Assembly (NCBI GenBank): GCA_973895155.1
Contig: OZ316893.1
Span: forward strand, 3,206,490-3,270,489
Length of the DNA: 64,000 nt
Direction: 5' to 3'
From: Marsupella aquatica
Taxonomy: Eukaryota > Plantae > Marchantiophyta
In this document: one piece after another, positions 3,598 through 64,000 of the stretch
Layout: each line of letters opens with the position of its first letter
Position numbering within the stretch: the stretch's first letter is position 1
Notes under the pieces: generated by a model
Told to the model about the DNA's origin: nothing
Seen by the model: only the letters and a program-made list of their open reading frames with translations
The model's database searches: none
Made by a program: the position numbers and the translations under genes

Positions 3598-3691
3598 GGC
3601 ACTCTACATATCGTAGAGGGGAGACATGTGCGTATTCACCTAGGCAGGATACATCAGGACGTAGTACCAACCATTGCATTTATATGAGTAA

Positions 3692-9600: not shown

Positions 9601-9685
9601 CGACGCCGATAGCGATGTTCGCGAGGACGCTTCACAATTAAGCAGGGAGCTATGTGACACCGCCGGTACGGCGGTTAATGAGTGA
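3692..9685 (+). pseudogene. gag-pol polyprotein (Gag, 3 CCHC knuckles, protease, RT, RNase H, integrase) with one in-frame stop at 8585-8587
   Basis: Motifs DPDEWLDEFE (capsid); CSKCFQSGHVVQEC, CYNCEKPGHFAREC and CQVCKTEAHSTANC; LVDGGAGVN (protease); RMPFGLCNAP and FIDD (RT); FEKWGIDY and TTPYHPKANG (integrase); WLGPF. ORF 8621-9685 is in frame with 3692-8587. Confidence 0.95.
9640..9652 (+). promoter_or_regulatory. Polypurine tract
   Basis: AAGCAGGGAGCTA immediately before the 3' LTR TG at 9653. Confidence 0.6.
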
Positions 9686-28290: not shown

Positions 28291-29259
28291 AACCTTGCCT
28301 AATCACAAGATACACCCTTTAGTGATAGAGGGGGATGAGAATTAATCAAGTCCAATTACTAGTCTATCTAGCGCTGATCAAGAAACTATATCCCATGAAG
28401 CTGGGAGTTTGTAGGTTGTACTCACTGGGAGCCCAAGCTATTGGATTGGTAAGATGTCTGCAGACAAAAACAAGTCAAGCAGAAAATATCTCCAAACCTG
28501 GAAAAGATCTCAAGCAAAAATGCTCTCATGCGGGTAAATGGCAAACTAAAAACACATCAAGTGGAAACATATCATGCAAAAAAGAATCTCAAAGAAACAA
28601 GAGATCATAGAGAGCCAAACAAACTGGAAGGTCAACGAAAAATATATGCAAGATTGTGGGCAATCCAGGGGAGGAATTTAAGCCAGCTAGGATGAGTGAA
28701 AAGATAGATAATCCCTCCCCAGGCCTACACCTCTCCCATTCATGATTGAATCTCTTCCCAACAGATTTTTTTATAACAAATGAAGGGTGTTTTAAATCCT
28801 CAAATCTATCTGATTATAATAACATAGGTAAATTTTATATAGGACTGAAAATTCTTTTTAGAACGAACAAGATACATTTTAATGTTCTTCCAAAATATAA
28901 CAAGGGGTACCTGGGGGGCCTTCGGTCACAAGTATGTCTCATTACATTTCCCTTAGTGAGGGCCCAAGGCTTATTTCTCTTTTCAAAATCTTCATGATAT
29001 TCAAAAATGTGTACCAAAAAACCACCAAAAAATGGTATGTATTTTCCAAACTAGACTCAAGAGAATTTTACCACCAAAATCTAAGCATATCTTATATGAT
29101 ATTCTCACAATTGTATAAACCTTGAAATATGCACTTTATAAAAGTAGTCAAAATCAAACTCATCGATCAGAGTTTAAGTCAAACTCAATGTTTTACAGAA
29201 TAGAACCCAACTTAACCCCAAGTGGTTTCACATGCTACAAGCCCCCCTATTTACCTAGT

Positions 29260-32200
29260 CTAATCCAAAGGGACCGCTTCCCCTTCCTCGGTTCCGGAAG
29301 TCCCTGCCGTCAATTCTGGAACAATTGTGGCATCGTCAACCACGCTATCCTCTCCGGCCTGAGGAATGTCTTCCTCACTATCCTCATCTGTCTCCCCTTG
29401 TCTGTCTTCCTCTTCAATGTTATCTGCAAGGTTAAGAATCCTCCCTTTCAACACACTGCTCTGTCGCTCGTCAATCTCAATGGCAACGCAATGTCTCCCC
29501 ATGGCCAAGGAGGAGGTTGTCCCAGTCCCTGATCCTAAACAAATATCCAAAACCCAGTCTCCAACCTGACTAAAATGACTCACTTCCCAATCTAACAATG
29601 CACGTGGTTTCTGATAGACATTCACTGCCTTGTTATCCCCGTTGGGTTTCAGCTTCTTAGTCACAGCTGCGCATACAACCACATTGTTCCTGGATTCATT
29701 TGTGTCAAAATTGAAGTGCTCCAATGACCGTTTACCATCTTGGCTGTGAAAGCCAATTGTAAAGCACTCAAAGTTGCTGTTCAATCTTGGCCCACCAGCA
29801 TTCTTCACATTATCCTTCACCCTGAAAAGTCACAAAAAGTCAAGGAGTCATTTAAACTTAGAAACATGGATCATGAAATCATGAACAACTAATAATTGTT
29901 TTTTTCAAAAACAAATATTTCTTACCACACACAATTCTGGAACCCTCCATTACACTCCGCTTTCAAAATGGTCTTGATGGCCTCATATTGGTCAAGGCTG
30001 TGGTGAATGATAATACGCCACAACTTCGCAGTAGTAGCCACCTTGAAAGATTGGACCATTTTTGTGATCTCCTCAATTCCCCATCCAGTAGTGTCCTCAT
30101 GAAGACATCCAGGCAATGCAAACCCGTAGGGGATATCCACTAAAGCTAATGTGTAAGCCCGACCAGGAACCACCTCGTGTAATTGCTGAGCATCATGAGT
30201 AAAAATATCATAATGCACATCACCAAACTCTGGATGCTCAAAAGAATTTGGATGAAGTTCCCCTCTTGGGTTTGTCGACTAGAAGTCTTCATGGATAGCC
30301 AATTTTGCGCTTGCACAATATGCGCATTGAATTTGTCTGGGAATGACTTGAGATCTTTGCCTTCCTCATCTCCCTTCTTTTTCCGGGAGGTGGTATCTTT
30401 CTACAAAAGAGAACCTTACAATTAGAAACAAGGATTCCAAATATTCAATGAATACAAACAAGCATTTGAAGAAAGGTGACAGAATCTTATCCATGTCTGG
30501 AAAACAGGTACAAAATTCTTAAGCACATTGTCTGTGCAATGCTCAGGGTACTTGGTTTTACAACCTGACCAACTCTCCTTGTGTAAACACGTGAGGAAGG
30601 CCTTCTGCACCTGCATCTGGAATTTGTGTCGAGTAAATTCGTGAGCCATTTCCTGTAAAGAGAGTTCTTTAGTAAGAACTCTCTGTAACACTGGGCAAAT
30701 CATATCAGGATCTTTCAAGGCCTGCATGTGTCTCCACTCTGTTAATTTCATGTCCTCATAAGGCAATTTGGCATCTCCAGACTTAGAGACTTTCTTCTTG
30801 CCCTTGTCTCCTTTTTGACCTTTGATCTCACACATCTCCCACTTGTCACAAATCTACCTCACAAATGACCACACAGGATCTTGTCGGAATGCCAACTGAA
30901 ATAGGTTATCGTTGGCATTAAGAACCTCAGCATCTTTTTGCACACCCCAATCCTTGAGATTGATTTCAGTAGCACACTCTTTCTTGAAATCCTGGTTGGA
31001 CGACAATCCATTCTCCACAAATCTCATGTGAATATAATTTACTCTCTGGATTGTCGTCATTTGTTGTCGAAATTCAGAATCAATATTGTGACTCCACGCC
31101 AAGTTTCTTGCCTCTTGCACACTCAATCCCGCAAATATCCAAGATTGCACTCTCCAAAATGCCTTGTTGTTAGGGAACTAAAGAGCAAGGTCTGCTTTGG
31201 CACAGGCTGAATGGTTGCCCCCAATCACATAATAATGGTAATCAGATTTCCTTGAAAAATCAAAGTCTTGCCTAGTAGCACACTCCTTCGGATCCACCAA
31301 GAGGACAAACGGAGCTGCAAGTGGACTGGCACCTACAGTCTTCATCCGCAAGGTCAATTGGGTCAAGAAATATGGTTGGATGTGTCGAACCTGGTAAATG
31401 GGCAAGCCCACATCCTTCTCTCTCACTGGAGGGTAAAGTTGACCAATGTCAACCGTCACAGTCTCCTCTTGAACACCACATCTTCCCAGAATCTCCTCCT
31501 GGTAAATACCCGTGCATCCTTTGACATTGATTGAGCCTTTTGCTCCAAATGCGTCGGAATTTTCTCCAAAGTTTTCTTTTTTGACTTTGGAGCACTGGGC
31601 TCGGCAGGCTCAGGAGTCATAGCAGGTCGCTTCTTTGAAGAAGTACGAGTTCCAGTCGTACCTTGTGCCGACCCACCAGTCAAAGCCGTTCCCTAGGATG
31701 ATCTGCCAACTTGAGATCCCCCTCCAGATGCTGCTGCTTCACGGGAGGTTGCAGGCGCTACCACGGTCAAAATGTCATTGGGTAAAATGCTAGGCCTGGA
31801 TCGAGATGGAACATCGGAAGCCCCAGATTTGAGTGGATGACTTACTCCCTTCTCTGCCGATCTTTTCCGGAGAATCTCTCGCGATTTTTGGATTGCACTC
31901 TTTAAAGTGCTAGCGTGAAATTTGAACACAAAACCAGAAATCTTTCCCGCGACGTCGTGGTAACGTTCCTCACTCGAAAGAGACTTGACAGTCTCAATGA
32001 TGCTATCGATGTCCTCATCGAGATAGCAGGTGGCAGCCATTCCAGAAAACCTCTCCACATCCATGACAATCAAAGTCGATGTTTCCTTCGTTGTGATCAA
32101 CATGTTCACAACTTTGTCGCCCAGTCAAAATACATCAATACGGCCGTAATTGACCCACCCTAATGCCCCCGATGGAAGCCCCTCAAATACACACAACATT

Positions 32201-32319
32201 AGGAAGGGCTTCTTCCATGTTTCTGTCCCTAAGGAAATCATCCAGGATGAGTTGTGGAAGTCCGTCAAAGGATGGCGCGAAAAGATGTCATCCACCAGCT
32301 CTTCCTGCGATATTGTCAT
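29260..32319 (-). pseudogene. ParB/Srx-like domain + beta-class DNA amino-methyltransferase (N4-cytosine/N6-adenine), spliced, decayed
   Basis: Consecutive minus-strand ORFs linked by in-frame stops and two frameshifts. ParB-like YYVIGGNHS (~31210-31235); motif IV LVDIPYG (~30123-30143); NCVWVK rebuilt across GT-AG intron 29822-29925; motifs X/I YQKPRALLDWEVSHFSQVGDWVLDICLGSGTG...GRHCVAIEIDE. A second intron 30401-30490 has an AT (probably mutated GT) donor. Confidence 0.85.
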
Positions 32320-32540
32320 GTTTCCGCCTGATCTTTAAAACCTAAAAACATACCACAAAATCAGTCCACTTCAAACCCAACCTGCGACACAAAGTGCCAC
32401 AGAACCAAAGAATGTGCCAACAAATGGATACTAAAGCCGTGTCCTTACGGATCTAACAACGCTCTCGGCTTCAGGACTCCTATCATGAATTCATGAAGGG
32501 AGTCTCCCTCTCGCACTGACCTTCATGAATTCATGCAGGG

Positions 32541-35500
32541 TGTGGTGAGTCCCATGCCTCCCCAAACCCAAGAAACCCCCTTGCTCAAGCCGATTCCTAC
32601 AGGTTTCATCCTTGGCGAGGCTGTTTCCGCGGCTTAGCGGCATGGGACACTGCTAATTCTCCTTCTACTACTTTTATTAACATTTTACACACATATACTG
32701 GACAGATCCTTCATCGGGTCATGAGATACGCAGTCGGCCTAATCTAGGCCTTCTCTTGTCTTTCCCTCCTGTTGGTTAGGTATATTTGGATTCCGCCGCC
32801 GGAATGATCCCCAATTGGTTTGGTTAAGCCGCTAAGACCTCTCTCAGCTCGACACATCCAACTCTCACTCCCTTGCTTACTTCCCTTCTACTTGTTGATG
32901 TGGGCACTCTTCACACAAGTTAATGCGACACACAAATAGCAAAATGACTCCTTCTGACTGAGTTATACCTATGCACTTGCAATACAAACAGTACATCTCA
33001 TACACAAGCTCTACGAACTAAGCCGTGAGGCCAACTCTATTCAGTTCTTAGGTATGAGGAAACATGAATATAGACAAGGGTCACTGTATAACTAACCGAG
33101 AGCTTCTCTTACTACTTGATCCCAGCCCTGCTGGTGCAACTAAAAACTTGCTAAAGAAGAGGCCCTGAACTCCCCGCAGCCCAGGTACTTATCCTGGTTG
33201 TGGATCCGCCTGATTCCTTGCAGCGTAAGCCTAATCTACCTACTGTAATCTACCTAACTGTAATCTACCTATGTACAGCAAGGCAGGAGCACAAGTGTCG
33301 TCCTCACCCGTGGATCCAAAATCCCACTAATCTAAGTGTCAGGGCCGTCTCCTGGTCCTGATCCTAAGTCTAAACTTGGAGATCAGCGCCCGCCCTGCCC
33401 ACTCACGCCTCCTACCTCCACGTCCGCCTTCCCTAAAAGGGACGGCGCCCTTACACCGTCACGACACCGGTGGCTGGTCCTCAATGGACGCCCCCAATGC
33501 TTCCTCCGCAACCACTGCCATTGGTCCGTCTTTTGACAGATTACCTGCCCCTGGCCGAGTCAACTCTTCATCGGCCTGACTGGGTCCACCCTCGGCTTCG
33601 GCCTCAGCATCGGTCACGGCCTCTGCGGCATGTTCTAGTGGAGGATCCGGTACCTCGGCAGCATTACTGGTTCTCCCGGCCTCGGCCTTGCCATCTCCAC
33701 TTCCTAGGACTGGTGGATCCACCGCCGTGCCGATGCCGGAGGTTGGTGCCGGGTTTATCTTCTCGGTCACAACGGCTTGAGAAGCCGTATAATTCCCAGA
33801 CCTAGAAGGTTTCCGCTTCTTCTTCTTCCCTATTTCGACAGCCGGTTCCTTCCCCTTGCCACTTACCTCCGGTACCGGGGTGAGTGTTTCGGCTTGTCCT
33901 TCGGCCAATACTACCCCTGGTAACTGGGTTCCCCCAATTGGAGTTGGACCTGATGAAGCCAAGCATTTAAATACTGCGGCTGGTGTCTTCAGTCGCTCCG
34001 TTTGGTTGTCGGCCCGCCGCTGTAGGTTCTCCATCTTCCTCGTGATTTCCTCCAACTCCTCCTGGGTCTCGTCCAGGTCCTTGCGCGCCTCCTCCAGCTC
34101 CTTATTGGCTTCCTCCAATTCTTTCTTTAAGGTAGCCCTCTCCTCCTGGGTTGCTCTTAGCTCCTTGTCGAGCTCTGCTACGACCACAGACTCCATCTTA
34201 TTCATCTTGGCATAAGTCTGGTCGAGCTAGTCATCCTTTTCACACAGGTCGGCCTTGAAGCTGGCCATTAGGGACGCAAGCTCCTGCTGCAGCGCAATAA
34301 TCCCTTGATAGGATTTCCCTAACTCTGCTTCCTTCTGCTCAAGGGCTCCACGGATATCTTTGAGCTCTCCTTTCAACGCCCTCTCCCTTCTCTGGTTCTC
34401 CGCCATGGCCCGATTGTTGGTTGCTAAGTGGGCCTCCTCTGCATCCCTTAGCTCCCACTTCCATTTCTCTCTTTCCTTGACTGCGCCGGCCAACTCTCCT
34501 TGGGTCCGAGTCAGTTTATCTTTGATAATCTGATTGTCAGACTGAGCGGTATCCAACTGCCCCTGCATGATGTTTTGCTCATGCCGCTTAATCCGCAGCT
34601 CATCTTGGGCTTCTTGGCCACCTGCAGGACTTCCACCTTGGCTTCCTTCTCCCTAAGCCGCCGGATGACCTCGTCCTTGTTGCTTCTCTCCAAAGCCACC
34701 GCTTCTTCTAATCGGTGCTTTTCCAACATCTCCCTCTGGAAAAAGGGTCCCTGCTCCAACTCCTCCCCAAAGATGCTGAGCGCCAGGTCCCCACACATCT
34801 CCTCGTACTCCATGGCTCTATCCTTAGCATAGGTGGAGTAACTAGAAGTCATCGGCATCAACCACCGCGGCCTCTGCTCCCAAGCCGCCTTGCGGATTTC
34901 TTCTATGGTGGCAAAAGGGTTGCTTCTTTTTTCGGCAAGCCGCCTGATGTCCTCTGGCCAATCTCCTCCTGGTAAATCTTTCTCCCTAGCCAGGGCTGCT
35001 TTCTCTTCCTCCCTAAGTCACTCCTGAAATTCTTGTGCCATCTACTTTATGCCGTCAAAGCTTGGGGGAGCAACCTCTGGTGGGGGAGACTCGGGGCTAC
35101 TCTGCTGGGTGGGGTCGCCTCGAACTACTCTTGGAAGCGTGGGGATAAATCGGCCACAGGTCCTTACTCCTGGAACATGATGATCCGACCCATAGCCGGA
35201 GTTATCATTGCTGTAGTCCTCCACCGCCTCCTCCACTACTTGGACTCCCGGCTTCTCCCTTTGTTTCCCTGGTCTTGTCATGAAAATGACCTTATAGATC
35301 ACGGGCTCTGGTTCCTCTAGTTTCCAGGTTGTCGTCTCCCTCTGCTCTCCGCGGGAAGGAGCCTTAGGTTGCTCTGCCTCTGATTCGGGGCTTGAGGCTC
35401 CCATGTACATTCACACTCCCAACTTGTGTTCCGGCCTAAATCTCTCCTTGGTTCCGGTAAAGGGGTCTTCCCTTCTGAGTCGGCTTAGGCCAACCTCTAG

Positions 35501-37262
35501 GGCAGCGTCCTGTATCGGTGCCGTTGCCGTTGCCGGAACCAGTGTGGGTGCCGTTCTCTTTTCTTTCTCCAGCAATTTCAGCAGATTTTGCATGCCTGGT
35601 TGCTGCATCGGCAAGTCTTCTTTCCTTGTCCGAAACACCTGCTCGATCGTCGGACTGTCGGGCTGGTTGGGCTTCTTTGGTGCCGGCCCCTACTCCGGAA
35701 CCTCCTCCGGTGCCCTTGCCGATAGGGGAAGTACTGGGGCAAAGATTTGACTTCTGGCATACCGGCACAACAGCGGCATGTGATAGCCAAGCCGGGACAC
35801 GCTTTCCACGCCGATCACCTGCTGTTCCTCCTTCAAGATCTTCTTCAGCTGGTTGAGGAGGTACCCATTGTAATCCCGGCTTGGGTCTGGCCTTTCTGCT
35901 AGGTAGACCTGAGCCTTGCCGATCTCTGGCCTCGACAAGTTACAATGCATGGTCACCCGCAAGAAATCGATCATCTCTCCGATGTGTGGGTTGGTGCAGG
36001 TGTTCCGAAAGAAGCCATTCTTTGTTGATGGTCCTGGGAATGACCGAAACTCCTTGTCAGGTAAGGTCTTCTTGGTATCAACCTTGGTCTTATTACCCAT
36101 CGGCAAGCCAAACACCTCAGCAATCACCCGGGGAGTGAGATAGAAATCCTTCCCATACACCCTCGTGGAATTGGTCTTGGGTTCCCATGATCCCACAAAT
36201 TCTAATAAGTCTGAGTCTGGCACCTCCGGCTTCAGCCATGGTAATCTTATGAAGGCTTCCAAGCCGGATCCGGCCATGAAGCCTTGGTACTTCTTGGTCT
36301 GCATGGCCGTAAAGCATGCATCCTCCTCCCGTGCAAAGTGTAATTGCACTTCCTCCGGTAGGGTCGCCGCCCAGCCTTTCCAGGTGTCATCGTTTGTTGG
36401 AATGGCATTGATGGGGTCGACCTCTTCCTCTTCGGCTTCTCCCCTTGTCCTGCTCTGCTGGCTTCCTAGGTGCTGCCGACCTCGTTCTTTTTGCCGGGGT
36501 GGCCTCTTCGTTGTTGTTTCCTTTCCTCTTCATCTCGGCTGCCGTGGATGTTTCTCCTAGCAAGGTTGCCTTCGTCCACCCCTCCGTGTTACCCTTCAAC
36601 TCCCAGTGTAGGTCGTTGCAGCGATTGATGGCTTCCCTGATGCCGACGATTCTATTTTCGCAAAACAGAAGGTCATCGAGCTGATTGGCAGTAGGAGTCC
36701 ACAAGAACTCGGCCTTGATAAGTTCTCCTCCTAAGAAAGTCATCTTTTGTAGTTCCCAGAGCCAAGCAAGCTCCTGCCGTTCTTGAGCTGCTCTCTCCGA
36801 TTCTTCATCCTCGTAAGTCCTGACGTACTCACCTGCTCGTTCGAACAGGCATCCCAAAAAATGTGCTGCTTGATTGACGTTGCTCATACCCTCCTTGAGT
36901 CGATCGTTGGTATCTATTCCCCCCGAGTGCTTGCCTAAGCAGCTGACAGTATTTGGCCTCCCGTAGTCGTCTGCCCAGTTCGTTCTTGCAAATGAGCCAC
37001 TGATCCTTGCGAGCGGGTTTTACCCCTCTCCTCCTCTGGTCTTCCCTCCCGTTGGTCATCCCTAGTCGCCGACGCTTAGCGCGCCCTAACCCTAATCGTG
37101 TTCTCTCCCCCGACGTCTTTACTTCCGGCCTCGGCCCGGGTTCCATAGTCACCCTTAATTGTTTATATTTTCCTTGTTTTTGTTCCTATACTAAGGTGTT
37201 TCCAGGGTACACTCCTGCTTTACTGTGTAAACCGGGCTAGTGATTCCTGGCTAGGCATCACA
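32541..37262 (-). mobile_element. 4722-bp solo LTR (family B) carrying a long gene
   Basis: Minus strand reads TGTGATGCCTAG...CCACA. Flanks are CAGGG and AAGGG (TSD with 1 mismatch); the uninterrupted host motif TCATGAATTCATGAAGGGAGTCTC is preserved at ~32483-32506. No gag/pol inside. Same terminus and ORF as the element starting at 61890. Confidence 0.82.
33459..37146 (-). pseudogene. Family-B LTR-encoded protein (~1200 codons, frameshifted): PMD-like core plus coiled coil
   Basis: ORF pieces 36829-37152, 36387-36887, 35690-36349, 35411-35638, 35042-35410, 34511-34861, 34227-34568 and 33459-34205. Core GLEAFIRLPW...EFVGSWE...TRVYGKDFYLTPRVIAEVFGLPMG. Confidence 0.78.
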
Positions 37263-37358
37263 AAGGGAGTCTCTTCTCTCTTTGCAAGTACACCTCGGAC
37301 ATTCCTGGCTAGGCATCACAAAGGGAGTCTCTTCTCTCTTTGCAAGTACACCTCGGAC
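37243..37358. repeat. Perfect 58-bp tandem duplication spanning the LTR end and its flank
   Basis: ATTCCTGGCTAGGCATCACAAAGGGAGTCTCTTCTCTCTTTGCAAGTACACCTCGGAC occurs twice (37243-37300, 37301-37358). Confidence 0.9.
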
Positions 37359-37882
37359 ATTTAGAAGGGTATTGAAAATGGGGTTCAGAGGGAGGGTGAT
37401 GTGAAGAAATCACCCAGGGTCTAAATAACTACCTAAAATAGGGTCAAAATGAAGCGCGACCACGACAACTCGCGACACGTCGCCGATGAGTGCTGAAAAC
37501 GGCACAAAATTGGATAGCGAGATTGTTTTTCACTCTTTTACAAAGGAAATCCAAATGACATCTAGTGAAAATGAATGGGTTGCCCCGTGTTACTTGGTTA
37601 TACATACTAATCACAGATAAGGCGCGACTTAGTAAAATTAACACCAAATCATGATAAATCAATGTTTTCGGGCCAATTATTCATGAATATTTTGGGGTAA
37701 TAACGAGAAAAAGTTCGTAAATTTCATGAATATCTGATATTTTTGAAGTTAAGAAGTCACAACAACCCGTGAAAAACTATAAATAGGCTTGTTTATTCAT
37801 GACTCTTGGTCATTATTTTGAGGAGATTTGTTAGATTTTACTAATTTTCTAAGTTTCTTGTCAATTTGCACTAGTTTTTCCA

Positions 37883-40280
37883 ATGGCGGCATGTTACGAA
37901 TCAAATGATTATTCAGATGGAGTTTCTGATGATGTTTCATTGTCAGATGGGCCCTGCACAGTGGTTGGCCCAGATATCCCTGGAATAACTACTATTTTAG
38001 ATATGCCACCCCCACCCCTATGAGCAAGTTAAAACGTACTCCTTTACGACTTGCAATTAGTGGGAAGAAATCATTGGTCGGTGGTAAGGAGAGGTCAGGG
38101 AGCTCCTCTGACTCCTTGGAGAGTATCGGTCCCCCTGGACATCAAGTTGTGTCTCCTTTGTCACCAACAAAGGACAATTTGGGTAGTAATGTGGAAGGTT
38201 CAATGTCTATTGGGATGTCTGGGAAACGGTCTCATGAATTCATGAAGACTGAATTTGGGAAGACGAAGAAGGCACTAAGTGGGCCAAATGACAGAGATTT
38301 TTGCAGTCTCCAAAGTGTTCAACGGCTGAAGCAAATGCCAAAAAGTAAAACCTTTGGTAAGCCAACGTCGGAAACATTTCACAGGGGAATGAGGGAAGAA
38401 ACTAGACGACCAGTGTTATTGAAAAGTATTCTAGAAAAGAATTCTAATGTGCGTTCCTCATTTTTACCTAGGAGTCATGGTGTTGGGGCAGGGAGCGGAT
38501 CAAGTCACGGAAACTCAAACAGGGAAACCAACTTGGTGGAGAGGGCCCCTAGAAAAATATTGAAAGGGTCCTTACACGGTAATGGAGGGATTTCTGAAAT
38601 ATGCCCAGGTATTCCAAGGCTGCATAGAGTGAAGGAAGAGCCTCCATCTCCGAAGGCTGCAGGTCTGGAATCTCAGGATGTTCAGAAGAAAATGTTGGTG
38701 ACCATTTCATCATCGAATGATAGCGAGTCTTCGGAGAGTGAGGAGGATGATGATGTTCCAGTGGCATCTAGTCGTTACAAACGTACGAGCAACGCCACTT
38801 TGTGTGAAACAAAGTTGAAAGAGGAGGATATCAAGAAAACAAATAGTAAGTACTATTGTCAGAGTCATTGTCTCCTAAGTCTATCTCCAAAAGAAATTCG
38901 TGAGGCGCGTTCTAAATTTTTGAGGCAGAAATCTCAGGATCGATCTTTATCTTTGCAGTGGCTTATAAAGCAAGACGGAAATGAAGGAGGGAGGCAGACT
39001 ATATCTTACATGTTTGGTCAAAAGAGTATTTGTCGGAAAGCTTTCAAGCTTATATTTTGCGTTGGCAATCAGAGATTAAATAGAATTTTGAAATTAGACA
39101 ACCAAGACTTAGGATATTCTAAACCAGTTGGACGCCCTCCATCTGTTAAAAGATTAGTCTTGGTCAATTGGCTTAGGTCGATCATTTTTTGAGACACGCG
39201 TGGAAACATTGCCAAATAAAGAAGTTTCACATTTACCGGATAATTATTCAAAGCTGGAGGTATGGAAGATCTACGATTCCAACTATGCCAAGATTGATGA
39301 GTCATCAAAAAATCCTATCGACAATTCTTGAAAGTTTGGGTTCAAGAATTTGGTCATGTTAAGATTCCTCCAGTCAATCGATTCAGTGCTTGCGCGGATT
39401 GCAAGGAGTTCAAATCAATTCGGGACAAAGCTATCTCGGAGACCGAAAAAAGTAAGTTACTTACAAGTTTGACAAGTTTTCTGTTTCAAGAATATGGCTT
39501 AGCACATTATTTCTATTTTTTTTTAAGAAACTAACACGTTGTTTTACCAGGGCGAGGGGAGATTATGTTACAAAAACATAGAGACCAACAATCCAAAGAA
39601 CGTGAGAAACTCGCGAAGCATCGTAAGAAATGTTTTTCAAATCCTGATAAATATTTGGGAGTTGTCATTGATGGGATGGATCAGAAGAAGACAAGGTTGC
39701 CTCATTGGCCGCGTCCCCCAAAATCGGTGGACGAAACATGTTTGATCCAAATGCACGTTGTCGGATGCCTGGTTTTCAATGGTGCACTATTTTCAAGAGT
39801 ATTTCTTAATTATCCCGTATTGCATAATGATGGAAACTTGACAGTCACAATCCTGCAAAGGGTGTTTCACGAATGGGAAGAAAAGCCTGGTGGCTTGCCG
39901 CCTGTTCTCTATCTTCAACTTGATAATACCAGTAGAGAAAATAAAAATAATTTACTCTTTGCCTATCTTCATATGTTAATTCGAAGAAAGGTTTTTTGGA
40001 ATATCAAACCAAAAAATAAAATAAAATAGGATTCTTGTTGGTTGGACACACACACGACCAAATAGATCAAATGTTCAGTCGATTTTCTAAACGACTAGCA
40101 AGGTTTAAGGCATTCACATACGAAAGCCTATGTGATATTATTTGCGAATCATATCAACCCCAACCAAATATCACTCTTTTAAAGGAAACATATGATTTCC
40201 GTCAATATGCATTCTCAGATCCACCTTTAGTCATTGAAAGGATTCGAAATGTTACCTTCCACCACCAGTACAAATTTGCA
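37883..40280 (+). pseudogene. DUF7869/Sola-like RNase H-fold DDE transposase, frameshifted and C-terminally truncated
   Basis: ATG at 37883; Cys-rich YCQSHC...ICRKAFKLIF; RFSACADC; intron ~39452-39550; catalytic-type motifs IDGMDQKK, LYLQLDNTSRENKN and LLVGHTHDQIDQMFSRFS. Confidence 0.78.
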
Positions 40281-40679
40281 CTGCAATGGGAAGAAGCAGA
40301 GGAATATGCCCGAACACCTATCTATGAGGGTGCTCGTTTGAGTCGTCTTTCAGCCATCTTGGGGTTGATGAACCTACAAGCCAAACACAAGGCAAGCAAT
40401 GCCTTGTTATCTGATATGTTTGCACTTTGCCATGACCTTATGTTACCCACTGAGAATGTGTTGCCAGCAACTTGGAAGGAGGCAAAGAGTGTTCTCTCAT
40501 CTATTGGCATGGAATATCATATTGTTCATGCATGTGTGAATGATTGCATGTTATTTCATGGGGCCAATGCAAACATGACACAATGTACAACATGTGATGA
40601 GCCTCGCTATGACCCCAACATGCTAACAAAGAAGGTGCCAAGGAAGGTTGTTCGTTGGTTTCCCATCATTCCTCGGTTG

Positions 40680-41082
40680 TGTTGAGCATAGACGACGATC
40701 GCAACGGCAAGCCCATGAACCATCCAACGCACAATAGTCGACACAAGAGATACGTGGTTCACCTCCTTGAGGCTACGTCCACGGGAACACACAAGAGAGC
40801 TTTACTGAACTCTAAGCCCGTCGGCTATACCGAGTCTCCACAGTGTAAGCTCTCCCTATCTCTCAAGTGGCTCCATAACAATGAGCCTTGGTTCTACCTC
40901 TCCAAGCACACATGCCTCTTATGATATAGTGTGCAACTTAGTTGTACCTAACCACATAGTTGTACCTAACCACATAGTTGTACCTAATCACGTAGTTGTA
41001 CCTAACCACATAGTTGTACCAACCCACATTGTTGTACCAACCACGTCATACCTAACCTAGACGTAAGAGTAAATACCCAACA
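40680..41082 (-). repeat. Copia 3' LTR with 18-bp TAGTTGTACCTAACCACA tandem repeats
   Basis: Direct repeat of 46736-47138 (offset 6056); about 6 copies of the 18-mer in the U3 part. Confidence 0.95.
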
Positions 41083-41273
41083 ATCTTCCCCTTGACTCTG
41101 GTCTAGGGGAGAGTAATACTGCCAATGTATATGATCCCTCAGCGGGAAGTTCTGGACAGAAACCAAACCGGTTTCCCTCTCTAACTAGAGCAAACCAGAA
41201 CTAAGCCGTAGCCTAATACATAGGAATGAGGAAGAGCATATATCAGTAATTACAATGAATGTTTAAGAAAACT

Positions 41274-44200
41274 CTACTTGTGATGCAATTGCAAAACCTG
41301 CAATACGTCACGGTGTCTAGAGAAACTCTCCAAAGGAATCACTTTGGTAAATGCGTCAGCCGGGTTGAGTTTACCATCAATCTTGACTAGCTCAAACAAT
41401 TTATCAGACACAGCCTGCCTGATAAAATGGTACCTGACGTCAATGTGCTTCACTCTGCTGTCCATCACCTGGTTCACAGCAAGGTGGAGCGCACTTTGAC
41501 TATCACAATGGAGCTTCACATTCCCCTGTGGCAATCCCATTTCAGTGATAAGTCTATCCAACCAAATCGCTTCCTTTGCTGCTTCCGCAGCTGCAACATA
41601 CTCCGCTTCTGTAGTAGACTGAGCAATACACTTCTGCAAAGTAGACCTCCAACTTATGCATCCACCGCCAAGTGTGAACACGTATCCTGTTGTTGATCTC
41701 CTTCGGTCCAAATCTTGTCCATAGTCAGAATCTACATAGCCAATCAATGATCTAGCATTCTTTGCATTCGCATCAAATAAAAGACCATGATCCACGGTAC
41801 CCTTCAAGTACCTGATAATCCACTTCACTGCTTCCCAGTGTACCTTCCCTGGATTCGACATGTACCTGCTCACCTTGCCCATAGCCATGGCAAGATCAGG
41901 TCTAGTGCAAGTCATCAAATACATGAGACTCCCCACTGCCTTGTCATATGGAACCTTTGACATCAACCCCTTCTCTGTGTCATCCGTAGGACAGAACGCT
42001 GATGATAACTTGAAGTGTGGAGCCAACGGGGTACTTACTGGCTTGCTATTCTCCATGTTGAACCTTGCAATTACCTTCCTCGCATAACTGCTCTGCGTCA
42101 ACCATAGCTTGCCAGCCTCCAAGTCCCTAGTGATCTCCATACCCAAAATCCTCTTAGCTGGCCCTAAGTCCTTCATCTTAAACTCTGCACTAAGCAGTGC
42201 CTTGAGCTTAACAATCTCAGACCTATCCTTGGCTGCAATTAGCATGTCATCCACATAAAGTACTAAAACAATGAACCCAAAGACAACATTCTTCACCGGT
42301 TTCAAATACACACAAGGGTCAAATACACTTCTGTGAAAACCTTGTGACCGAATCCAATCGTCAAACCGCTTGTTCCACTGTCTTGGTGACTGCTTCAATC
42401 CATACAAGGATTTCAGCAATCTGCAAACCAATTCCTCCTGTCCTCTCTTCACAAAACCTAGCGGTTGTCTCATGAAGATCACCTCTTCCAATGTGCCATA
42501 GAGGAAAGCTGTGACAACATCCATCTGATCTAGGAGCAGACCAAACATTACAACAAGTACACACAATAGTCGTATTGTAGAGTACTTAGCAACTGGTGAG
42601 AAGACCTCATTGTAATCCACACCTTTCTCTTGTGTGAATCCCTTTGCTACCAATCTAGCCTTGTAGACCTTCGATCCACCTCCTATGGAATTATCCTTCA
42701 GCTTGTAAATCCACTTGCTGTCCACCACTTGCTGACCCTTAGGCAGCTTAACAAGCTCCCAAGTTTTGTTGTCCTTTAGTGACTGCATCTCTGTTTGCAT
42801 TGCTGCAGTCCACTTTTGCTTCTCCTTTGAAGCACTTGCCTCATGAAATGAAGAAGGTTCTCCTTCTTCCAAAATTAACGCATCACCCTCATCATCAGTT
42901 GTAAAATCATCCTCTTGCAGTTGAGATGAATCAACCCACTGTCCATACCTTGATGGAGCGCGTACAGTGCGACCAGATGTTCTTCTAGCCGATGACTCCG
43001 GTTGATCTGTGTGTGCTGGTACAATTTGAAGCTCAACAGCATCCACTTGCTGCTCACCAGCATCAACAAACTCCTCTGGTTCCTCTGGCACAGGAACCAG
43101 CTCCATAATTGGAGCAACTCCTTCTCTCCGGTCATGCACCTCATAACCAATCTCCCCCTCAACGAGATCCGGGATAGGAGATTTTCTTTTGTCAGTACGG
43201 GAGACCTGAGTATTCTCCCCCTCCTTCAATAATCTGGATTCATTGAAGGAAACATCCCTACTGACAACGAGCTTACAGGCAATAGGATCCCATAGCCTAT
43301 AGGCTTTCACACCACTCTGGTACCCAAGAAAAACACATTTCCTGGAGGTAGGATCCAACTTGGTCCTATTCTGCTTTGGTGTGAGAGCATATGCATCACT
43401 TCCAAAAATTACCAAGCCATGATAGTCTGCTTGCCGCTTATAGCGCATCTCAAACGGCGTTTTGAAATTGATAGCACTAGAAGGAGAAAGATTTACCAAA
43501 TAAGCTGCGGTATTGACAGCTTCTGCCCAAAATTCTTGTGGTAAACCTGATTGGCTCAACATACTCCGTGACCGCTCCAACAGTGTCCGATTGAGCCTCT
43601 CAGCGACACCATTCTGCTGCGGAGTATAAACTGTGGTGAGATGGCGAGTTATCCCCTGTTCTGAACAGTACTCTTCAAATTCCATTGAAGTGTACTCCCC
43701 GCCGTTGTCTGACCTCAAACTCTTCACCCTTGTATCCAAACACTTGATCGTGTTTCCAGTCTGATTCTCCACCTGGGCCTTCCATTTCTTAAAAATGGAC
43801 AAGACATCAGACTTATGCGTCATGAAATAAATCCACACAAATCTTGAGTAATCATCAATAAATGATACATAGTACAACTTTCCAGAGTGTGAGGGAGTCG
43901 GGGATGGACCCCACACGTCACTATGTATGTACTCAAGAACCGCTTTGGAACGATGAGTTCCAACACCAAAAGCACGACGATGCTGCTTTCCAAGAATGCA
44001 ATGCTCACAAAACTCTAATTTACAAGATTGCAAATCAGAAATGAGTCCATTCTTCCGTAAGATAGCCAAACCCTTCTCACTCATGTGGCCTAGCCGTGAA
44101 TGCCACAGTTGAGTCATCTCCTCGTGAGACTTGGTTACATTGGCCTCTCCACATACAGTATTGCCCTGTAACACATACAAATTCTTTTGTCTACTCCCCT

Positions 44201-44501
44201 TCAAAATCACTGTCTCTCCCGACCTGACTTGAAGTTCACCATCAATAACGCTCCATTGATGACCATTTGAATCCAACACACCGAGTGAAATCAGATTCTT
44301 ACGCATGCCAGGTACATACCTGACTCCGGACACTGTGCGCACAGCGCCATCAAACATTTGAATCTTCACAAACCCAATTCCCTCAATTTGACAGGAGTGA
44401 TCATTTCCCATCAGAACTGAACCGTTTGAAATAGAGTAAGAACTGAAAAACTCACGAATGTAACAAATATGAAAAGAGCAAGCACAATCAAGAATCCACA
44501 C
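41274..44501 (-). CDS. Copia Pol (protease, GAG-pre-integrase, integrase, RT, RNase H)
   Basis: WILDCACSFH, LWHSRLGH, IHSDVWGP, LRSDNGGEY, PQQNGVAER, YKARLVAKGF, LYVDDML, STTEAEY, KHIDVRYHF. Confidence 0.96.
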   Translation of the reverse strand: MWILDCACSFHICYIREFFSSYSISNGSVLMGNDHSCQIEGIGFVKIQMFDGAVRTVSGVRYVPGMRKNLISLGVLDSNGHQWSVIDGELQVRSGETVILKGSRQKNLYVLQGNTVCGEANVTKSHEEMTQLWHSRLGHMSEKGLAILRKNGLISDLQSCKLEFCEHCILGKQHRRAFGVGTHRSKAVLEYIHSDVWGPSPTPSHSGKLYYVSFIDDYSRFVWIYFMTHKSDVLSIFKKWKAQVENQTGNTIKCLDTRVKSLRSDNGGEYTSMEFEEYCSEQGITRHLTTVYTPQQNGVAERLNRTLLERSRSMLSQSGLPQEFWAEAVNTAAYLVNLSPSSAINFKTPFEMRYKRQADYHGLVIFGSDAYALTPKQNRTKLDPTSRKCVFLGYQSGVKAYRLWDPIACKLVVSRDVSFNESRLLKEGENTQVSRTDKRKSPIPDLVEGEIGYEVHDRREGVAPIMELVPVPEEPEEFVDAGEQQVDAVELQIVPAHTDQPESSARRTSGRTVRAPSRYGQWVDSSQLQEDDFTTDDEGDALILEEGEPSSFHEASASKEKQKWTAAMQTEMQSLKDNKTWELVKLPKGQQVVDSKWIYKLKDNSIGGGSKVYKARLVAKGFTQEKGVDYNEVFSPVAKYSTIRLLCVLVVMFGLLLDQMDVVTAFLYGTLEEVIFMRQPLGFVKRGQEELVCRLLKSLYGLKQSPRQWNKRFDDWIRSQGFHRSVFDPCVYLKPVKNVVFGFIVLVLYVDDMLIAAKDRSEIVKLKALLSAEFKMKDLGPAKRILGMEITRDLEAGKLWLTQSSYARKVIARFNMENSKPVSTPLAPHFKLSSAFCPTDDTEKGLMSKVPYDKAVGSLMYLMTCTRPDLAMAMGKVSRYMSNPGKVHWEAVKWIIRYLKGTVDHGLLFDANAKNARSLIGYVDSDYGQDLDRRRSTTGYVFTLGGGCISWRSTLQKCIAQSTTEAEYVAAAEAAKEAIWLDRLITEMGLPQGNVKLHCDSQSALHLAVNQVMDSRVKHIDVRYHFIRQAVSDKLFELVKIDGKLNPADAFTKVIPLESFSRHRDVLQVLQLHHK

Positions 44502-44546
44502 ATCATCTGCTCTCCTAGATGACGTGCACAGGGCATACCCCCGGCT

Positions 44547-45581
44547 TCATAAAACATACTCATCATTGAGTAAATCAGCTTCTCCATCAGCCCTAGCCAC
44601 ATTTGCCGATGAAGTTTCCGCTGCCTTTCCCTTACAGTCTCGCTTGAAGTGTCCAACTTGGTTGCACTTCCAACATGTCACCTGCCTCCTCTGAGGGGAT
44701 TTACCCTTGGACTTAGATCTGGATTTAGATCTAAACTGGGTTCTACGGTCCCCAGTTGGTCGCTGCATACTCCTCCCACGGTTAACATTGAGGGCAGCAC
44801 CAGATGATGAAGGCTGTGACGTGATGTGCATCTTCTGCTGAAGATCATCACTAAGCAGAGAACTTACCACGTCATTGTATGAAATGGTATCCCTATCACG
44901 ATGCAACAACACTCGTGATAGGGACTGGTAAGATGGAGGCAATGAACTAAGAAGCTGCAGAGCCTTCGTCTCATCATTCAAAGTCTCCCCAAGGTTTTCC
45001 AAGTCAACGACCATGTCGTTGAAAGCATCCACATGGTCTTGCAACTTCGTACCAGATTCCTTCATCCTGAAACTCATCAGTTTGTAGGAAGTGTAGAGCC
45101 GGTTCGACAACTCCTTGCGGTGATACTTGCTCTGCAATTCCGCAAATAAGGACATGCAATCCTTATGTGCACCCAACTGCTTGATGATGGGAGGCATGAG
45201 ATAGAGTGTAACACACCACACTCCCTGCTCCTGCATGCGGTCCCATTGTTTCTCATCAACATCGTCTTCACGAGGGCTCAGCAGTTGGCCCATCCCTGAC
45301 GCATAAAGCACTCCCTTCACCTGCTTCTCCCATAGCAAGTAGTCAGAGCGCCCATCATACTTTGTCACTTCATACTTGGGTCCCCCAAGCTTGAAAGTCC
45401 CCATCTTCTTCTTTACCGTGAGCTCCGGTAGTAGTACTGCTTCCTCCACCACACGCCGCACCGGTGATGGTATCGGTGTCACGTGCTCTTCCTCCTGCTC
45501 CTCTCTCTGCCCCTGAAACCTCCGCGGTGACCCTCGTGCTTCAAGTTCCACGTCTTCGAAAAACTCCTCCGAATCACTCAT
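44547..45581 (-). CDS. Copia Gag (UBN2-type, CCHC knuckle)
   Basis: KYDGRSDYLLW, LLSSLPPSY, CWKCNQVGHFKRDC. Confidence 0.93.
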   Translation of the reverse strand: MSDSEEFFEDVELEARGSPRRFQGQREEQEEEHVTPIPSPVRRVVEEAVLLPELTVKKKMGTFKLGGPKYEVTKYDGRSDYLLWEKQVKGVLYASGMGQLLSPREDDVDEKQWDRMQEQGVWCVTLYLMPPIIKQLGAHKDCMSLFAELQSKYHRKELSNRLYTSYKLMSFRMKESGTKLQDHVDAFNDMVVDLENLGETLNDETKALQLLSSLPPSYQSLSRVLLHRDRDTISYNDVVSSLLSDDLQQKMHITSQPSSSGAALNVNRGRSMQRPTGDRRTQFRSKSRSKSKGKSPQRRQVTCWKCNQVGHFKRDCKGKAAETSSANVARADGEADLLNDEYVL

Positions 45582-46735
45582 ATGAGAAAGTCACAAAAAA
45601 TGTTGTTTTTCACAACTTCTCAAAAAACTCGAAACTCAACACCGCCGCGTAGCCCACAAAGCTAGGAGTCCAATACTGAAAACCGAAATCAAAATCGAAA
45701 TTTGACGGAAAAGTTATTCAAATTTCGGTCGAGGTGGGTAAAACCTTGGGAAACTCCCCCGTTTTGACCACCTCAGGGAATAACCGAAATACCAAGTACA
45801 ACCCGTTGTCGGAATTGCGATGTGATTGGTGCGCTGCATTGCCAACTTCAATGGCTACGACCTCGCCGAAAAATAACCAAAAAAGTTACCGTTCGGCGGA
45901 TGAAATCTTTGTCGGACGGTCAAAAAATAGCTCTCTGGTTTTTTGGAATATTCTATGACCCTTGTACAGGCCCTGTGGGAATTTTGGAAGAACAATCGAG
46001 GGGCTGACATGTGTCCTCGAACCCCCAAAACCCCCTACCACCCTTCGTCGTCGAAATCTGGTCGCGCGCGCAGAAAATACACACGGCAGAATGTACCCCT
46101 CGACACCAAACGCAAGATATCTCACTCGGGTTTTGACTAAATCAAGATCCGATTTCAGATTTGGAAACTAGACTCCGAGGCGATGAAGATCGATATAAGA
46201 AGCACCCAAAACGAGGAAAGAACGAGGGAGAAAAAAATTGGTAAAGATGACAGATTTCTCTCAATTGCCATAGCCAATTTCGAATCAGTTTTTCAAAGAG
46301 AAAAAAATGGTACCTTGTCAACAACGAATGTTGATCAATTGCACTTGGTGTCGTCACCAAGTCCAACAAGGTAATTGATTTTGCTTAGCCTTCCTCTTTG
46401 CATCAAAGAGCCAATCCCGGACTCAAAAACAATCGTCTTGCCTCAATCTCTCCGTTGAGTCAAAACACTTGACGCTTCTCCCTCCGAGTCGATTGCCAAC
46501 TTTCTTCACAAAATCCAGAACGACGAAAACTTAGATCTCTCTGCACCACGAGCTCCGTTCAACGATTTCTTCACACCGTTAGAAAGCTCTTGCCCTGATC
46601 TATCCGTTGAGCCCATAAACTCCAAGTTCCATGCGATGGAACTCTGGAAAATCCACCAACACTCAACGCTGGAAAAACCGTCATGAAATCCCGTCACGAA
46701 CACACGTCACCTCCCAAGCATGCTCTGATACCAAT

Positions 46736-47138
46736 TGTTGAGCATAGACGACGATCGCAACGGCAAGCCCATGAACCATCCAACGCACAATAGTCGACAC
46801 AAGAGATACGTGGTTCACCTCCTTGAGGCTACGTCCACGGGAACACACAAGAGAGCTTTACTGAACTCTAAGCCCGTCGGCTATACCGAGTCTCCACAGT
46901 GTAAGCTCTCCCTATCTCTCAAGTGGCTCCATAACAATGAGCCTTGGTTCTACCTCTCCAAGCACACATGCCTCTTATGATATAGTGTGCAACTTAGTTG
47001 TACCTAACCACATAGTTGTACCTAACCACATAGTTGTACCTAATCACGTAGTTGTACCTAACCACATAGTTGTACCAACCCACATTGTTGTACCAACCAC
47101 GTCATACCTAACCTAGACGTAAGAGTAAATACCCAACA
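46736..47138 (-). repeat. Copia 5' LTR
   Basis: Followed on the minus strand by a tRNA-iMet PBS, TGGTATCAGAGC. Confidence 0.95.
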
Positions 47139-50100: not shown

Positions 50101-51319
50101 CTTGTGAATTTTACATGCAACTTTCTATCTAACCTCTGTTGCTCAATATAACTTTATTTCCTACTTTTCCATAATTTTCATTGTCACCCTCATGTTTCCC
50201 TCCTCCATGGTACGTCTGTCCCTCCTCCTCCCTTCCTCTTTCTCCTCCCTCCTTCCTCTTCCATTGTACTCCCTCCCTTTTCCATCCTTCATTGTACCTC
50301 CCTCCATCCTCCCTTCCTCTTCCCTCCTGCCCCATCCATATATTGGACCATCCACCCTCTTCATTGTCTCACCTCATAATAATCTTAATTTTTAGTTTGC
50401 AAACAATTTGCGAAGCTCACAAAATCTCACCCGACTCGCAATTTATATGAAGCTCCTCGTTTCTCAATATTTCCATACTATACTATTCGCAAACTTGTGA
50501 TTCAAAATCAATCACAAATTTCATATTCTCACCGTTTCGCAAATCTTCCATCCTCCGACATTCTTAAACTTGTCAAACAACTACTATCGCAAAAAAATTT
50601 CAATCCAACCTTCTTCACAAATATTTACATCAGTTAGTTTCGGAGTCGGCGAGCGATTTTGGCGTCTTCAGAAAGCGCCTTTCCATTCGGCGCATTTTGG
50701 TAAAAATTGCAAAATAAGTTACTTCGCAATGTATTAGTGATATAATGCGCTTCAAGTATTATCTTTGCGATAGGGATAGAATTGCAAATTGTGATGCGGG
50801 TTGATTCACAAATTATGCCAAGCGCCGCCCATTGGAAATACAAGAGCGTCGACAAAAATACCTTCGCAAAAGTGTCAAATATGTTGTAGTGAACGTGCAA
50901 TTCTCCCCGACAAGTCTGGCTTGTTGACCATGTACTTCAAACTATTGTGATCCGTGTGGAACACCACAAGGAGGATATGCATGGTCGAGGAGTTGGGGAT
51001 TTCCCCACCTAACTTGGTGAATCAGTGTACCATAACAAAGAAGTGGGGATTTCGGACATCTTAGGGAATTTAGTTGAAAATACCCATGCTTTCCCATACA
51101 TAACGAGGGATTTGATACTTCTAGCAGTTTGACGTTTCCCTGGGGTAATTTGCCTATGTGTCCCACAAGTGTGACATTTGGGGCGTTTCCCATAATATAC
51201 CCAACTACAGAAGGGTTTAGCGCCTCCACATTTCCCCACATTTGCGTGTTTATTTGTATAAGCCGGAGGCAGTTGGCATAATCCAGGTCCTTGGATGGTC
51301 GCGCTCTCCGCAACATCTG

Positions 51320-63973: not shown

Positions 63974-64000
63974 TGTGATGCCTAGACAGGAATCACTCGG
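63974..64000 (+). mobile_element. Start of a third family-B LTR inserted inside the second
   Basis: 27/27 identity to 61890-61916. It interrupts the QQSSPESP(PPEV) coding sequence that is intact in the 32541-37262 copy. Confidence 0.75.

What the first reader, a model, noticed from the sequence alone, without database searches (positions are those of the whole stretch)
29260..40280. Candidate DNA transposon carrying its own bacterial-type DNA amino-methyltransferase (ParB-like + N4C/N6A MTase) head-to-head with a DUF7869/Sola-like transposase
Seen: the minus-strand gene has motif IV (DIPY) before motifs X/I (QKP...GDWVLDICLGSGT...GR..VAIEID), a WxK rebuilt across a clean GT-AG intron, and an upstream ParB-like YYVIGGNHS domain. 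Removing the solo LTR at 32541-37262 leaves its start only ~0.8 kb from the ATG of a divergently transcribed transposase (DGMDQ / QLDNTSRENKN / VGHTHDQIDQMF). Established: the IV-before-I order defines beta-class N4C/N6A MTases of prokaryotic restriction-modification and phage systems. ParB+MTase fusions are typical of prokaryotic mobile elements. Eukaryotic 4mC writers of bacterial origin are known in bdelloid rotifers (N4CMT) and Marchantia sperm. Inference: a two-gene eukaryotic transposon that writes a non-5mC DNA mark, possibly to mark or protect itself or counter host silencing, and a possible vehicle for plant 4mC/6mA writers. This copy is dead (stops, frameshifts).
Basis: partly seen in the sequence, partly recalled or inferred. 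Interest (0 to 1): 0.9.

Follow-up and report, generated by a model that had tools for sequence, protein, structure and literature searches.

The report
Plant transposon carrying own DNA methylase
This is a broken copy of a repeated plant jumping gene that carries, back to back with its transposase, a bacterial-type ParB-fold plus DNA-methyltransferase gene and a recurring 14-letter palindrome; the protein likely binds that palindrome and is predicted to put adenine methyl marks on the element's own DNA, a design reported in algae in 2025 and still untested.

Summary
All motifs lie where stated. The minus-strand gene joins an unknown N-terminal domain, a ParB-fold domain (AF2 model; Foldseek ParB/Noc E about 1e-5) and a beta-class amino-methyltransferase (PF01555). 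The partner DUF7869 protein folds as a DDE transposase.

The two genes are not chance neighbours. They share one elevated depth plateau in 3 sequencing runs, recur head-to-head in a 65%-identical element, and have adjacent locus tags in Riccia. The family spans Chara, liverworts, ferns and Ginkgo and is under purifying selection.

New here: a palindrome, TCATG-N4-CATGA, sits at equivalent non-coding sites in three elements whose synonymous sites are saturated. It is a parS-like candidate binding site.

Corrections: motif IV is D-x-P-Y, never SPPY, and the closest solved enzymes are 6mA writers, so a link to the Marchantia or rotifer 4mC enzymes is unsupported. The design is already in print for Ectocarpus Sola1-1 and red-algal Plavaka elements. 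The termini and the Sola assignment were not established. This copy is dead.

Verdict: a land-plant member of a recently described, functionally untested kind.

The parts
28660..40283 (.). Decayed two-gene DNA transposon, about 6.9 kb once the nested insert is removed. Left end approximate (+/- about 20 bp); right end deleted.
   Evidence: Depth rises from about 27 to 745 at the 28669/28670 bin edge in run X1 and stays high over both genes. The transposase C-terminal half and any inverted copy of the left end are absent from the window.
30491..32319 (-). Exon 1 of the accessory gene: N-terminal domain of unknown fold (about 32319-31873), low-complexity linker, ParB/Srx-fold domain (about 31504-31000; Box I QVR, GGNHS in place of GxxR), helical domains. 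Four stops (32127 TGA; 31695, 31180, 30856 TAG) and a frameshift near 31507.
   Evidence: tblastn with P0007, P0018, P0019; stops; AF2 pLDDT 79.7; Foldseek ParB/Noc E 1.5e-5 to 5e-4; PadC Z 9.1, rmsd 2.8 over 96 residues
30401..30490 (-). Intron A; donor reads AT instead of GT in this copy
   Evidence: the spliced Calypogeia protein P0002 reads W-K-D across it; many unspliced relatives end at the same W
29926..30400 (-). Exon 2: start of the beta-class MTase with motif IV DIPY (30137-30126); frameshift near 30263
29822..29925 (-). Intron B (GT-AG), containing one palindrome TCATGAAATCATGA at 29871-29884
   Evidence: the same intron carries the palindrome in L001 (4375) and L002 (3215)
29260..29821 (-). 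Exon 3: MTase motifs X and I (QKP, DICLGSGT, VAIEID) and an acidic tail
   Evidence: PF01555 E=3.5e-8
32483..32536 (.). Pair of palindromes TCATG-N4-CATGA, 40 bp apart, 164 and 204 bp upstream of the accessory ATG; candidate parS-like sites in the shared promoter
   Evidence: pairs 40 bp apart in L001 (1233/1273) and 42 bp apart in L002 (316/358)
32541..37262 (.). Nested high-copy LTR-type insertion (TG...CA, 5-bp duplication with one mismatch), landed next to the second palindrome; not part of the element
   Evidence: depth 25,000-51,000 in X1; an 83% identical partial copy at 61889-63803
37883..40283 (+). DUF7869 DDE-type transposase gene (MAACYE start; intron 39452-39550; three conserved Asp in DGMDQ, QLDN and HDQID), frameshifted and cut off at the 3' end
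   Evidence: the model of the close relative P0181 matches Mos1 Z 8.6 (rmsd 3.5, 164 residues), Metnase Z 8.3 and integrases
38232..38245 (.). Fourth palindrome, 349 bp into the transposase ORF
   Evidence: L001 has copies at 346 and 283, a similar distance into its divergent ORF
40284..49900 (+). CACTA transposase fragment abutting the break, itself split by a Copia element (40680-47138); not part of the element
   Evidence: Transposase_21 and DUF4218, RVT_2; 403-bp identical LTRs

Best explanation
This is a dead copy of a repeated two-gene DNA transposon whose accessory protein likely binds the element's own TCATG-N4-CATGA palindromes through its ParB-fold half and is predicted to methylate adenines (6mA) nearby, which would keep the shared promoter open against host 5mC silencing. 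Shown: the gene anatomy, both folds, linkage of the two genes in other elements, purifying selection, and conserved palindrome positions. Inferred: (1) a ParB-like dimer loads at the palindromes as ParB does at parS; (2) the fused beta-class MTase writes 6mA in cis, with CATG in the half-sites as one candidate target; (3) the mark helps expression or transposition. The family appears old in streptophytes rather than freshly taken from bacteria.
For: Same depth plateau on both genes: ratio 1.16, 1.10 and 0.85 in runs X1, X2 and X4, 59-125 times the unique-flank contig depth. L001 (65% nucleotide identity) has the same gene and a divergent ORF starting MAACYE..SDDVSL, 75% identical over 20 aa to window 37883. 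Riccia R1sor_010795 (DUF7869) and R1sor_010796 (ParB+MTase) are adjacent tags. L003 has DUF7869 directly upstream of a ParB-like relative. dN is 0.11-0.31 and dS is 1.7 to saturated in 9 of 9 comparisons. Palindrome: 3 exact matches in the window, all inside the element, against 0.12 expected; 6 and 3 matches in L001 and L002 against 0.36 and 0.17 expected. 6mA lean; the SPPY/DPPY distinction is in PMC8885841 (passages). The same self-binding hypothesis is stated for algal elements.
Against: No activity, binding or methylome data. The ParB Box II GxxR arginine, whose loss abolishes NTP binding (PMC12704722), is replaced by GGxH in 24 of 26 aligned relatives and by GGxN or a truncated motif in the rest, so clamp-like loading is doubtful. 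Motif IV is canonical DPPY in only 5 of 67. No TIR or TSD was found. L003 lacks the palindrome, has the genes in tandem, and shows no MTase domain. The Chara (5), Adiantum (2), Ginkgo (1) and second Riccia tags looked up have no adjacent tag among the 120 of 159 DUF7869 hits listed. Contig depth is not a copy number, the three runs come from two studies, and one may be the window's source. The L001 contig ends before the DUF7869 domain. This copy was silenced or decayed despite the cargo.
Confidence: 0.55

Rival explanations
1. Same element and enzyme, but the mark is self-limiting. Methylation of the palindromes in the shared promoter would restrain or time transposase expression, as Dam does for bacterial IS10 and Tn5 (recalled, no call).
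For: Two of the four palindromes flank the accessory-gene start inside the 841-bp intergenic region, and one lies in the transposase 5' ORF, an operator-like layout.
Against: Passages in PMC4738411 tie eukaryotic 6mA to active transcription, including on transposons. A site in the last intron is not explained by a simple operator.
Confidence: 0.2
2. The MTase domain is a weak or non-catalytic DNA binder. The protein acts by occupying and spreading over the element, like an anti-silencing coat.
For: Motif IV varies at position 2 (DIPY, DVPY, DFPY, DAPY), with some eroded forms such as DLPR and DIPS. Earlier notes on other genomes report dead MTase halves (unchecked).
Against: D, P, the W-x-K, QKP and the SAM-binding GSG loop are kept across Chara to Ginkgo, and both MTase exons are under purifying selection.
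Confidence: 0.15
3. The enzyme writes 4mC and is the source or a relative of Marchantia DN4MT1 and rotifer N4CMT.
For: Same Pfam family and motif order. N6_N4_MTases have switched specificity repeatedly (PMC8885841). The family occurs in liverworts.
Against: DN4MT1 has TSPPY and N4CMT has SPPY; 0 of 67 family members do. Rotifer N4CMT scores 35 bits against 58-70 for 6mA enzymes. DN4MT1 itself could not be placed in a tree.
Confidence: 0.08
4. Chance neighbours: a host or orphan MTase pseudogene beside an unrelated transposase.
For: No termini were found, and 4.7 kb of foreign DNA separates the genes here.
Against: Shared depth plateau, the same arrangement in L001, adjacent Riccia tags, two contig-length matches, and the palindrome on both sides of the insert.
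Confidence: 0.02

Closest known systems
Sola1-1_Ec32 of Ectocarpus and its 1104-aa accessory gene (PMC12477816; passages and supplement rows seen)
   Same: One gene with a ParB-like domain fused to an N4/N6 DNA MTase, transcribed on the strand opposite to a DDE transposase. The authors propose that such proteins bind and modify their own transposon.
   Different: Brown alga versus land plant; 21.5 kb versus about 7-8 kb; classed Sola-1 with 282-bp TIRs and a 4-bp TSD, whereas termini here are unresolved. No binding site is named in the passages seen. The sequence files were unreadable, so homology was not tested.
Plavaka (EnSpm) accessory genes PAG2 and PAG3 of Bostrychia (10.1101/2025.02.11.637652; passages)
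   Same: DNA-transposon cargo with a PF01555 MTase and a ParB-like domain; inverted-repeat arrays beside the ParB gene.
   Different: There the MTase is fused to SET and the ParB domain to a 2OG oxygenase, in two genes, on a different transposase superfamily.
Phage and prophage ParB-fold + N6_N4_Mtase fusions (PMC12704722, passages); beta-class 6mA enzymes CcrM, M1.HpyAVI, MboIIA, RsrI
   Same: Domain order and MTase class.
   Different: Intron-bearing eukaryotic gene with an extra N-terminal domain and a long helical region; GxxR arginine absent; D-x-P-Y rather than DPPY in most members.
Marchantia DN4MT1 and rotifer N4CMT
   Same: PF01555 beta-class MTases in eukaryotes.
   Different: They have (T)SPPY, write 4mC and are host genes. 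This family has D-x-P-Y, a ParB fusion and transposon linkage.
VANDAL/VANC anti-silencing proteins; KDZ elements with TET/JBP; DNMT-bearing retrotransposons
   Same: Transposons carrying a protein that alters chromatin or DNA marks (mentioned in passages).
   Different: Different enzymes and elements. VANC removes 5mC rather than adding an amino-methyl mark.

Membership tests
Beta-class amino-MTase (PF01555) | Pfam score above the gathering cut-off | tested here: met
   34.1 bits against 26.7 on exon 3; 32.7 on the spliced relative P0002
Beta-class amino-MTase (PF01555) | Motif IV before motifs X and I | tested here: met
   DIPY 30137, then QKP 29613, then DICLGSGT 29562 on the minus strand
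Beta-class amino-MTase (PF01555) | Canonical [DNS]PP[YF] motif | tested here: inconclusive
   DIPY here; DPPY in 5 of 67 relatives, D-x-P-aromatic in most
Beta-class amino-MTase (PF01555) | Methyl transfer to DNA | not testable with these tools
   needs an assay
N4C writers (DN4MT1, N4CMT type) | SPPY catalytic motif | tested here: not met
   0 of 67; motif stated
ParB/Srx fold | Structural match to the ParB N-terminal domain | tested here: met
   Foldseek: 15 matches at E<=0.001, the 11 of them listed all ParB or Noc; PadC Z 9.1, SerK Z 7.7
ParB CTPase clamp | Box II GxxR arginine | tested here: not met
   GGNH in the window; no GGxR among the 26 proteins shown
ParB CTPase clamp | HTH domain and a parS-like palindrome | tested here: inconclusive
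   Helical domain 184-251 matches three-helix binders only at Z about 4. The palindrome is present and enriched; binding is untested.
DDE/D transposase | RNase H fold with three conserved acidic residues | tested here: met
   Model of relative P0181: Mos1 Z 8.6, Metnase Z 8.3, integrases; Foldseek had no match at E<=0.001 but its top rows are RNase H folds; D47 near-invariant, D131 and D173 invariant in 45 sequences
TIR DNA transposon | Terminal inverted repeats and target-site duplication | tested here: inconclusive
   Right end deleted in this copy; no inverted match to 28600-28800 in the window; no genome held
TIR DNA transposon | Many copies in which both genes travel together | tested here: met
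   Equal depth plateau in 3 runs; linkage in L001 and Riccia. No single record spanning both whole genes was seen.
Sola superfamily | Transposase homology to Repbase Sola1/2/3, 4-bp TSD, characteristic termini | not testable with these tools
   No Sola sequences or profiles on hand; DUF7869 appears in 0 papers. The Sola resemblance is recalled only.

The most novel reading that the evidence does not exclude
A streptophyte-wide transposon lineage, from Chara to liverworts, ferns and Ginkgo, runs a miniature parS/ParB-like self-recognition system: its accessory protein loads on an element-specific 14-bp palindrome and writes 6mA in cis. This would make it a sequence-targeted DNA adenine methylase of land plants and an anti-silencing device with an identified binding site.
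Probability: 0.4. Interest if true: 0.85.

Novelty: new member of a known kind. Interest (0 to 1): 0.6.

Why it matters
ParB-MTase transposon cargo has been proposed in algae to bind and mark its own element, but nothing is tested and no site is named in the passages I saw. This family supplies a candidate site conserved at fixed non-coding positions, near-intact relatives, and members in tractable plants (Riccia, Ceratopteris). That turns the proposal into a direct binding and methylation experiment. If active, it is a source of localized 6mA in land plants, a second mode of transposon anti-silencing beside VANC, and possibly a targetable methylase.

Tried and rejected
No whole genome is held, so there was no copy-by-copy survey. 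Termini: the self-comparison and repeat searches found no TIR; the left end rests on depth bins only; no contig joining 32540 to 37263 was among the joints listed (15 shown, 288 not shown). Run X5 gave erratic depth and was left out of the ratios. No RNA holder was listed. Pfam, PHROGs and a PDB profile search do not detect the ParB part; only structure does. Searches for prokaryotic relatives in viral and genome contigs could not run because the alignment lacked a conserved stretch, so the bacterial donor is unidentified. The N-terminal domain stayed unassigned (one search gave no result). Literature searches found no description of this element in land plants. The library lacks most subscription papers; Iyer 2011 (cited for green-algal cases) and the Cell 2025 version of the Marchantia paper were not seen, and the FASTA supplements of PMC12477816 and all bioRxiv supplements were unreadable. 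Rejected: bacterial contamination (spliceosomal introns, nested plant retroelements, plant relatives); recent transfer from bacteria (the tree groups Chara, fern/Ginkgo and liverwort-type members roughly by host, with several long branches and a midpoint root).


Full report
Observation. The minus-strand gene has three exons: 32319-30491, 30400-29926 and 29821-29260. Intron B is a clean GT-AG that rebuilds W-V-K; intron A has lost its GT donor. Exon 3 passes the Pfam cut-off for PF01555, and two plus-strand pieces match DUF7869. The 4,722-bp insert has TG...CA ends and a 5-bp duplication with one mismatch; without it the ATGs are 841 bp apart. The copy is dead: four stops in exon 1, three of them TAG, of which at least two stand where relatives have Gln; frameshifts in both genes; and a transposase cut at about 40283, where a CACTA transposase fragment begins. 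C-to-T stops in CAG codons fit host 5mC decay (inference).

The accessory protein. Pfam does not see the middle part. An AF2 model from a 24-sequence alignment (pLDDT 79.7) matches ParB and Noc by Foldseek (E 1.5e-5 onwards) and PadC, SerK, KorB and Srx by VIA-align (PadC Z 9.1, rmsd 2.8, 96 residues). The Box I arginine is kept in most relatives, but Box II reads GGxH instead of GxxR. PMC12704722 reports that this arginine is needed for NTP binding (passages), so a CTP clamp is not established. Spliced plant gene models join the ParB and MTase parts in one protein (P0002, P0023, P0031, P0041, P0052). For the MTase, 67 of 154 relatives cover motif IV: 62 start with D, 5 are DPPY and none is SPPY. 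A family profile ranks solved 6mA enzymes first (entries 5hek, CcrM, MboIIA, RsrI; 58-70 bits) and the 4mC enzymes lower (8s9m 35 bits, PvuII 29 bits). Marchantia DN4MT1 has TSPPY (bioRxiv 2021.02.12.428880, passages) and rotifer N4CMT has SPPY (PMC8885841, passages). The 4mC reading is therefore unsupported, and 6mA is the better prediction.

The partner. DUF7869 appears in no paper in the library. A model of the 82%-identical relative P0181 (pLDDT 89) matches Mos1 (Z 8.6), Metnase and integrases. Foldseek gave only weak rows, mostly RNase H folds. Three aspartates are conserved across 45 sequences. It is a DDE-type transposase; 'Sola' could not be tested.

Are the genes one unit? In runs X1, X2 and X4, depth is flat and high over 28670-32400 and 37750-39880, with ratios between the genes of 1.16, 1.10 and 0.85, against low flanks. 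The fourth run, X5, was erratic and left out. Contig depth is not a copy number, but the main X1 contigs lie at 44-56 times the unique flank. One X1 contig runs 539 letters past 40280 on non-window sequence, so other copies keep the 3' end. Of 5 metagenome loci, L001 (65% identical) has the same gene and a divergent ORF with the same start peptide, though it ends before the DUF7869 domain; L003 has DUF7869 in tandem upstream of a distant ParB-like gene; L002, L004 and L005 are too short to tell. Riccia R1sor_010795 (DUF7869) and R1sor_010796 (ParB-MTase) are adjacent tags. Of 5 ParB/MTase hits on contigs of 6-70 kb, 2 share an exact contig length with a DUF7869 hit; I infer, but did not see, that these are the same contigs. 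Against: the Chara, Adiantum, Ginkgo and second Riccia tags I looked up have no adjacent DUF7869 tag among the 120 of 159 hits listed, and no termini were found.

Range and selection. Named relatives come from Chara, Calypogeia, Riccia, Adiantum, Ceratopteris and Ginkgo. A tree of the ParB part groups the window with Calypogeia and metagenome members (98/99), Riccia next, then ferns and Ginkgo, with Chara apart (midpoint root, long branches). This fits long residence in streptophytes. Between the window, L001 and L002, dN is 0.11-0.31 while dS is 1.7 to saturated in the ParB part and both MTase exons.

A candidate binding site, not in the original finding. TCATG-N4-CATGA occurs exactly 3 times in 64 kb, all inside the element (0.12 expected), with a fourth one-mismatch copy beside the insert. 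L001 has 6 matches and L002 has 3 at up to one mismatch (0.36 and 0.17 expected). The positions correspond: a pair 40-42 bp apart upstream of the accessory gene and one in its last intron in all three elements, and one or two in the 5' transposase ORF in the window and L001. The 4-bp core varies and the half-sites do not. An unbiased count ranks this gapped palindrome at or near the top in all three elements and not in the rest of the window. L003 lacks it. Conservation of a non-coding palindrome across saturated dS points to a dimeric binder encoded by the element.

Mechanism. Most likely, the ParB-fold half recognizes these sites and the fused MTase writes 6mA in cis, helping the bidirectional promoter resist 5mC silencing (0.55). 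Binding, catalysis and effect are all inferred. Rivals are self-restraint by methylation (0.2), a non-catalytic coat (0.15), 4mC (0.08) and chance (0.02).

What is known. PMC12477816 (passages and supplement rows) describes Ectocarpus Sola1-1_Ec32 with a 1104-aa ParB-like plus N4/N6 MTase gene on the strand opposite to the transposase, and proposes a class of self-modifying accessory proteins. The Bostrychia preprint (passages) describes Plavaka cargo with PF01555-SET and ParB-2OG genes beside inverted-repeat arrays. PMC4738411 (passages) lists ParB-HTH-fused MTases of another class in chlorophytes and chytrids. My ten searches found no land-plant case, within the library's limits. Also seen as passages: PMC12973397, PMC4455052, PMC12344493, bioRxiv 2021.12.13.472469.

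Verdict. Real, linked and conserved; a new land-plant member of a kind described in 2025 and still untested. Its added value is the conserved palindrome and the 6mA-type signature, which make the self-marking idea directly testable. Interest 0.6.

Noticed in passing
P0007 residues 300-658 (relative of window 31504-30491): The ESM Atlas feature search gave fungal DUF3723 clusters at 0.95-0.96. DUF3723 is conserved Starship cargo, so it may be a ParB-fold relative of this domain. A lead only.
   Followed up: partly
window 37243-37361: A 58-bp tandem duplication spans the right end of the insert and its flank, so it arose after insertion.
   Followed up: partly
window 32541-37262 and 61889-64000: Very high-copy LTR-type family with several minus-strand ORFs (coiled coil, no retroelement Pfam match in 4 scanned). 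The second copy repeats the terminal sequence again near 63974. Solo LTR or another structure is unresolved.
   Followed up: partly
window 40680-47138: Copia element with 403-bp LTRs that are 100% identical, so a very recent insertion into the CACTA transposase.
   Followed up: partly
window 951-13670: Gypsy element with about 99% identical long repeats, each split in two (951-1978 / 9653-10680 and 1983-3568 / 12087-13670), and an extra 594-codon ORF at 10167-11948 between the halves of the second.
   Followed up: no
window 22315-24697 (-): NPF/PTR (POT family) transporter gene pieces, the only host-type gene seen.
   Followed up: no
window 53573-56338 (-) and 59378-60025 (-): Several 130-275 aa ORFs with no Pfam match, downstream of the CACTA fragment and of a roughly 158-bp tandem array at 51316-51983; possibly a second CACTA gene or another element.
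   Followed up: no
P0031 (Chara braunii CBR_g41648): One 1825-aa gene model holds two ParB-MTase units in tandem.
   Followed up: no
P0060, P0081, P0163, P0180 (unnamed metagenome proteins): Distant single-ORF ParB-like plus MTase proteins, some with canonical DPPY, on long branches; possible algal or protist members linking to the published algal cases.
   Followed up: partly
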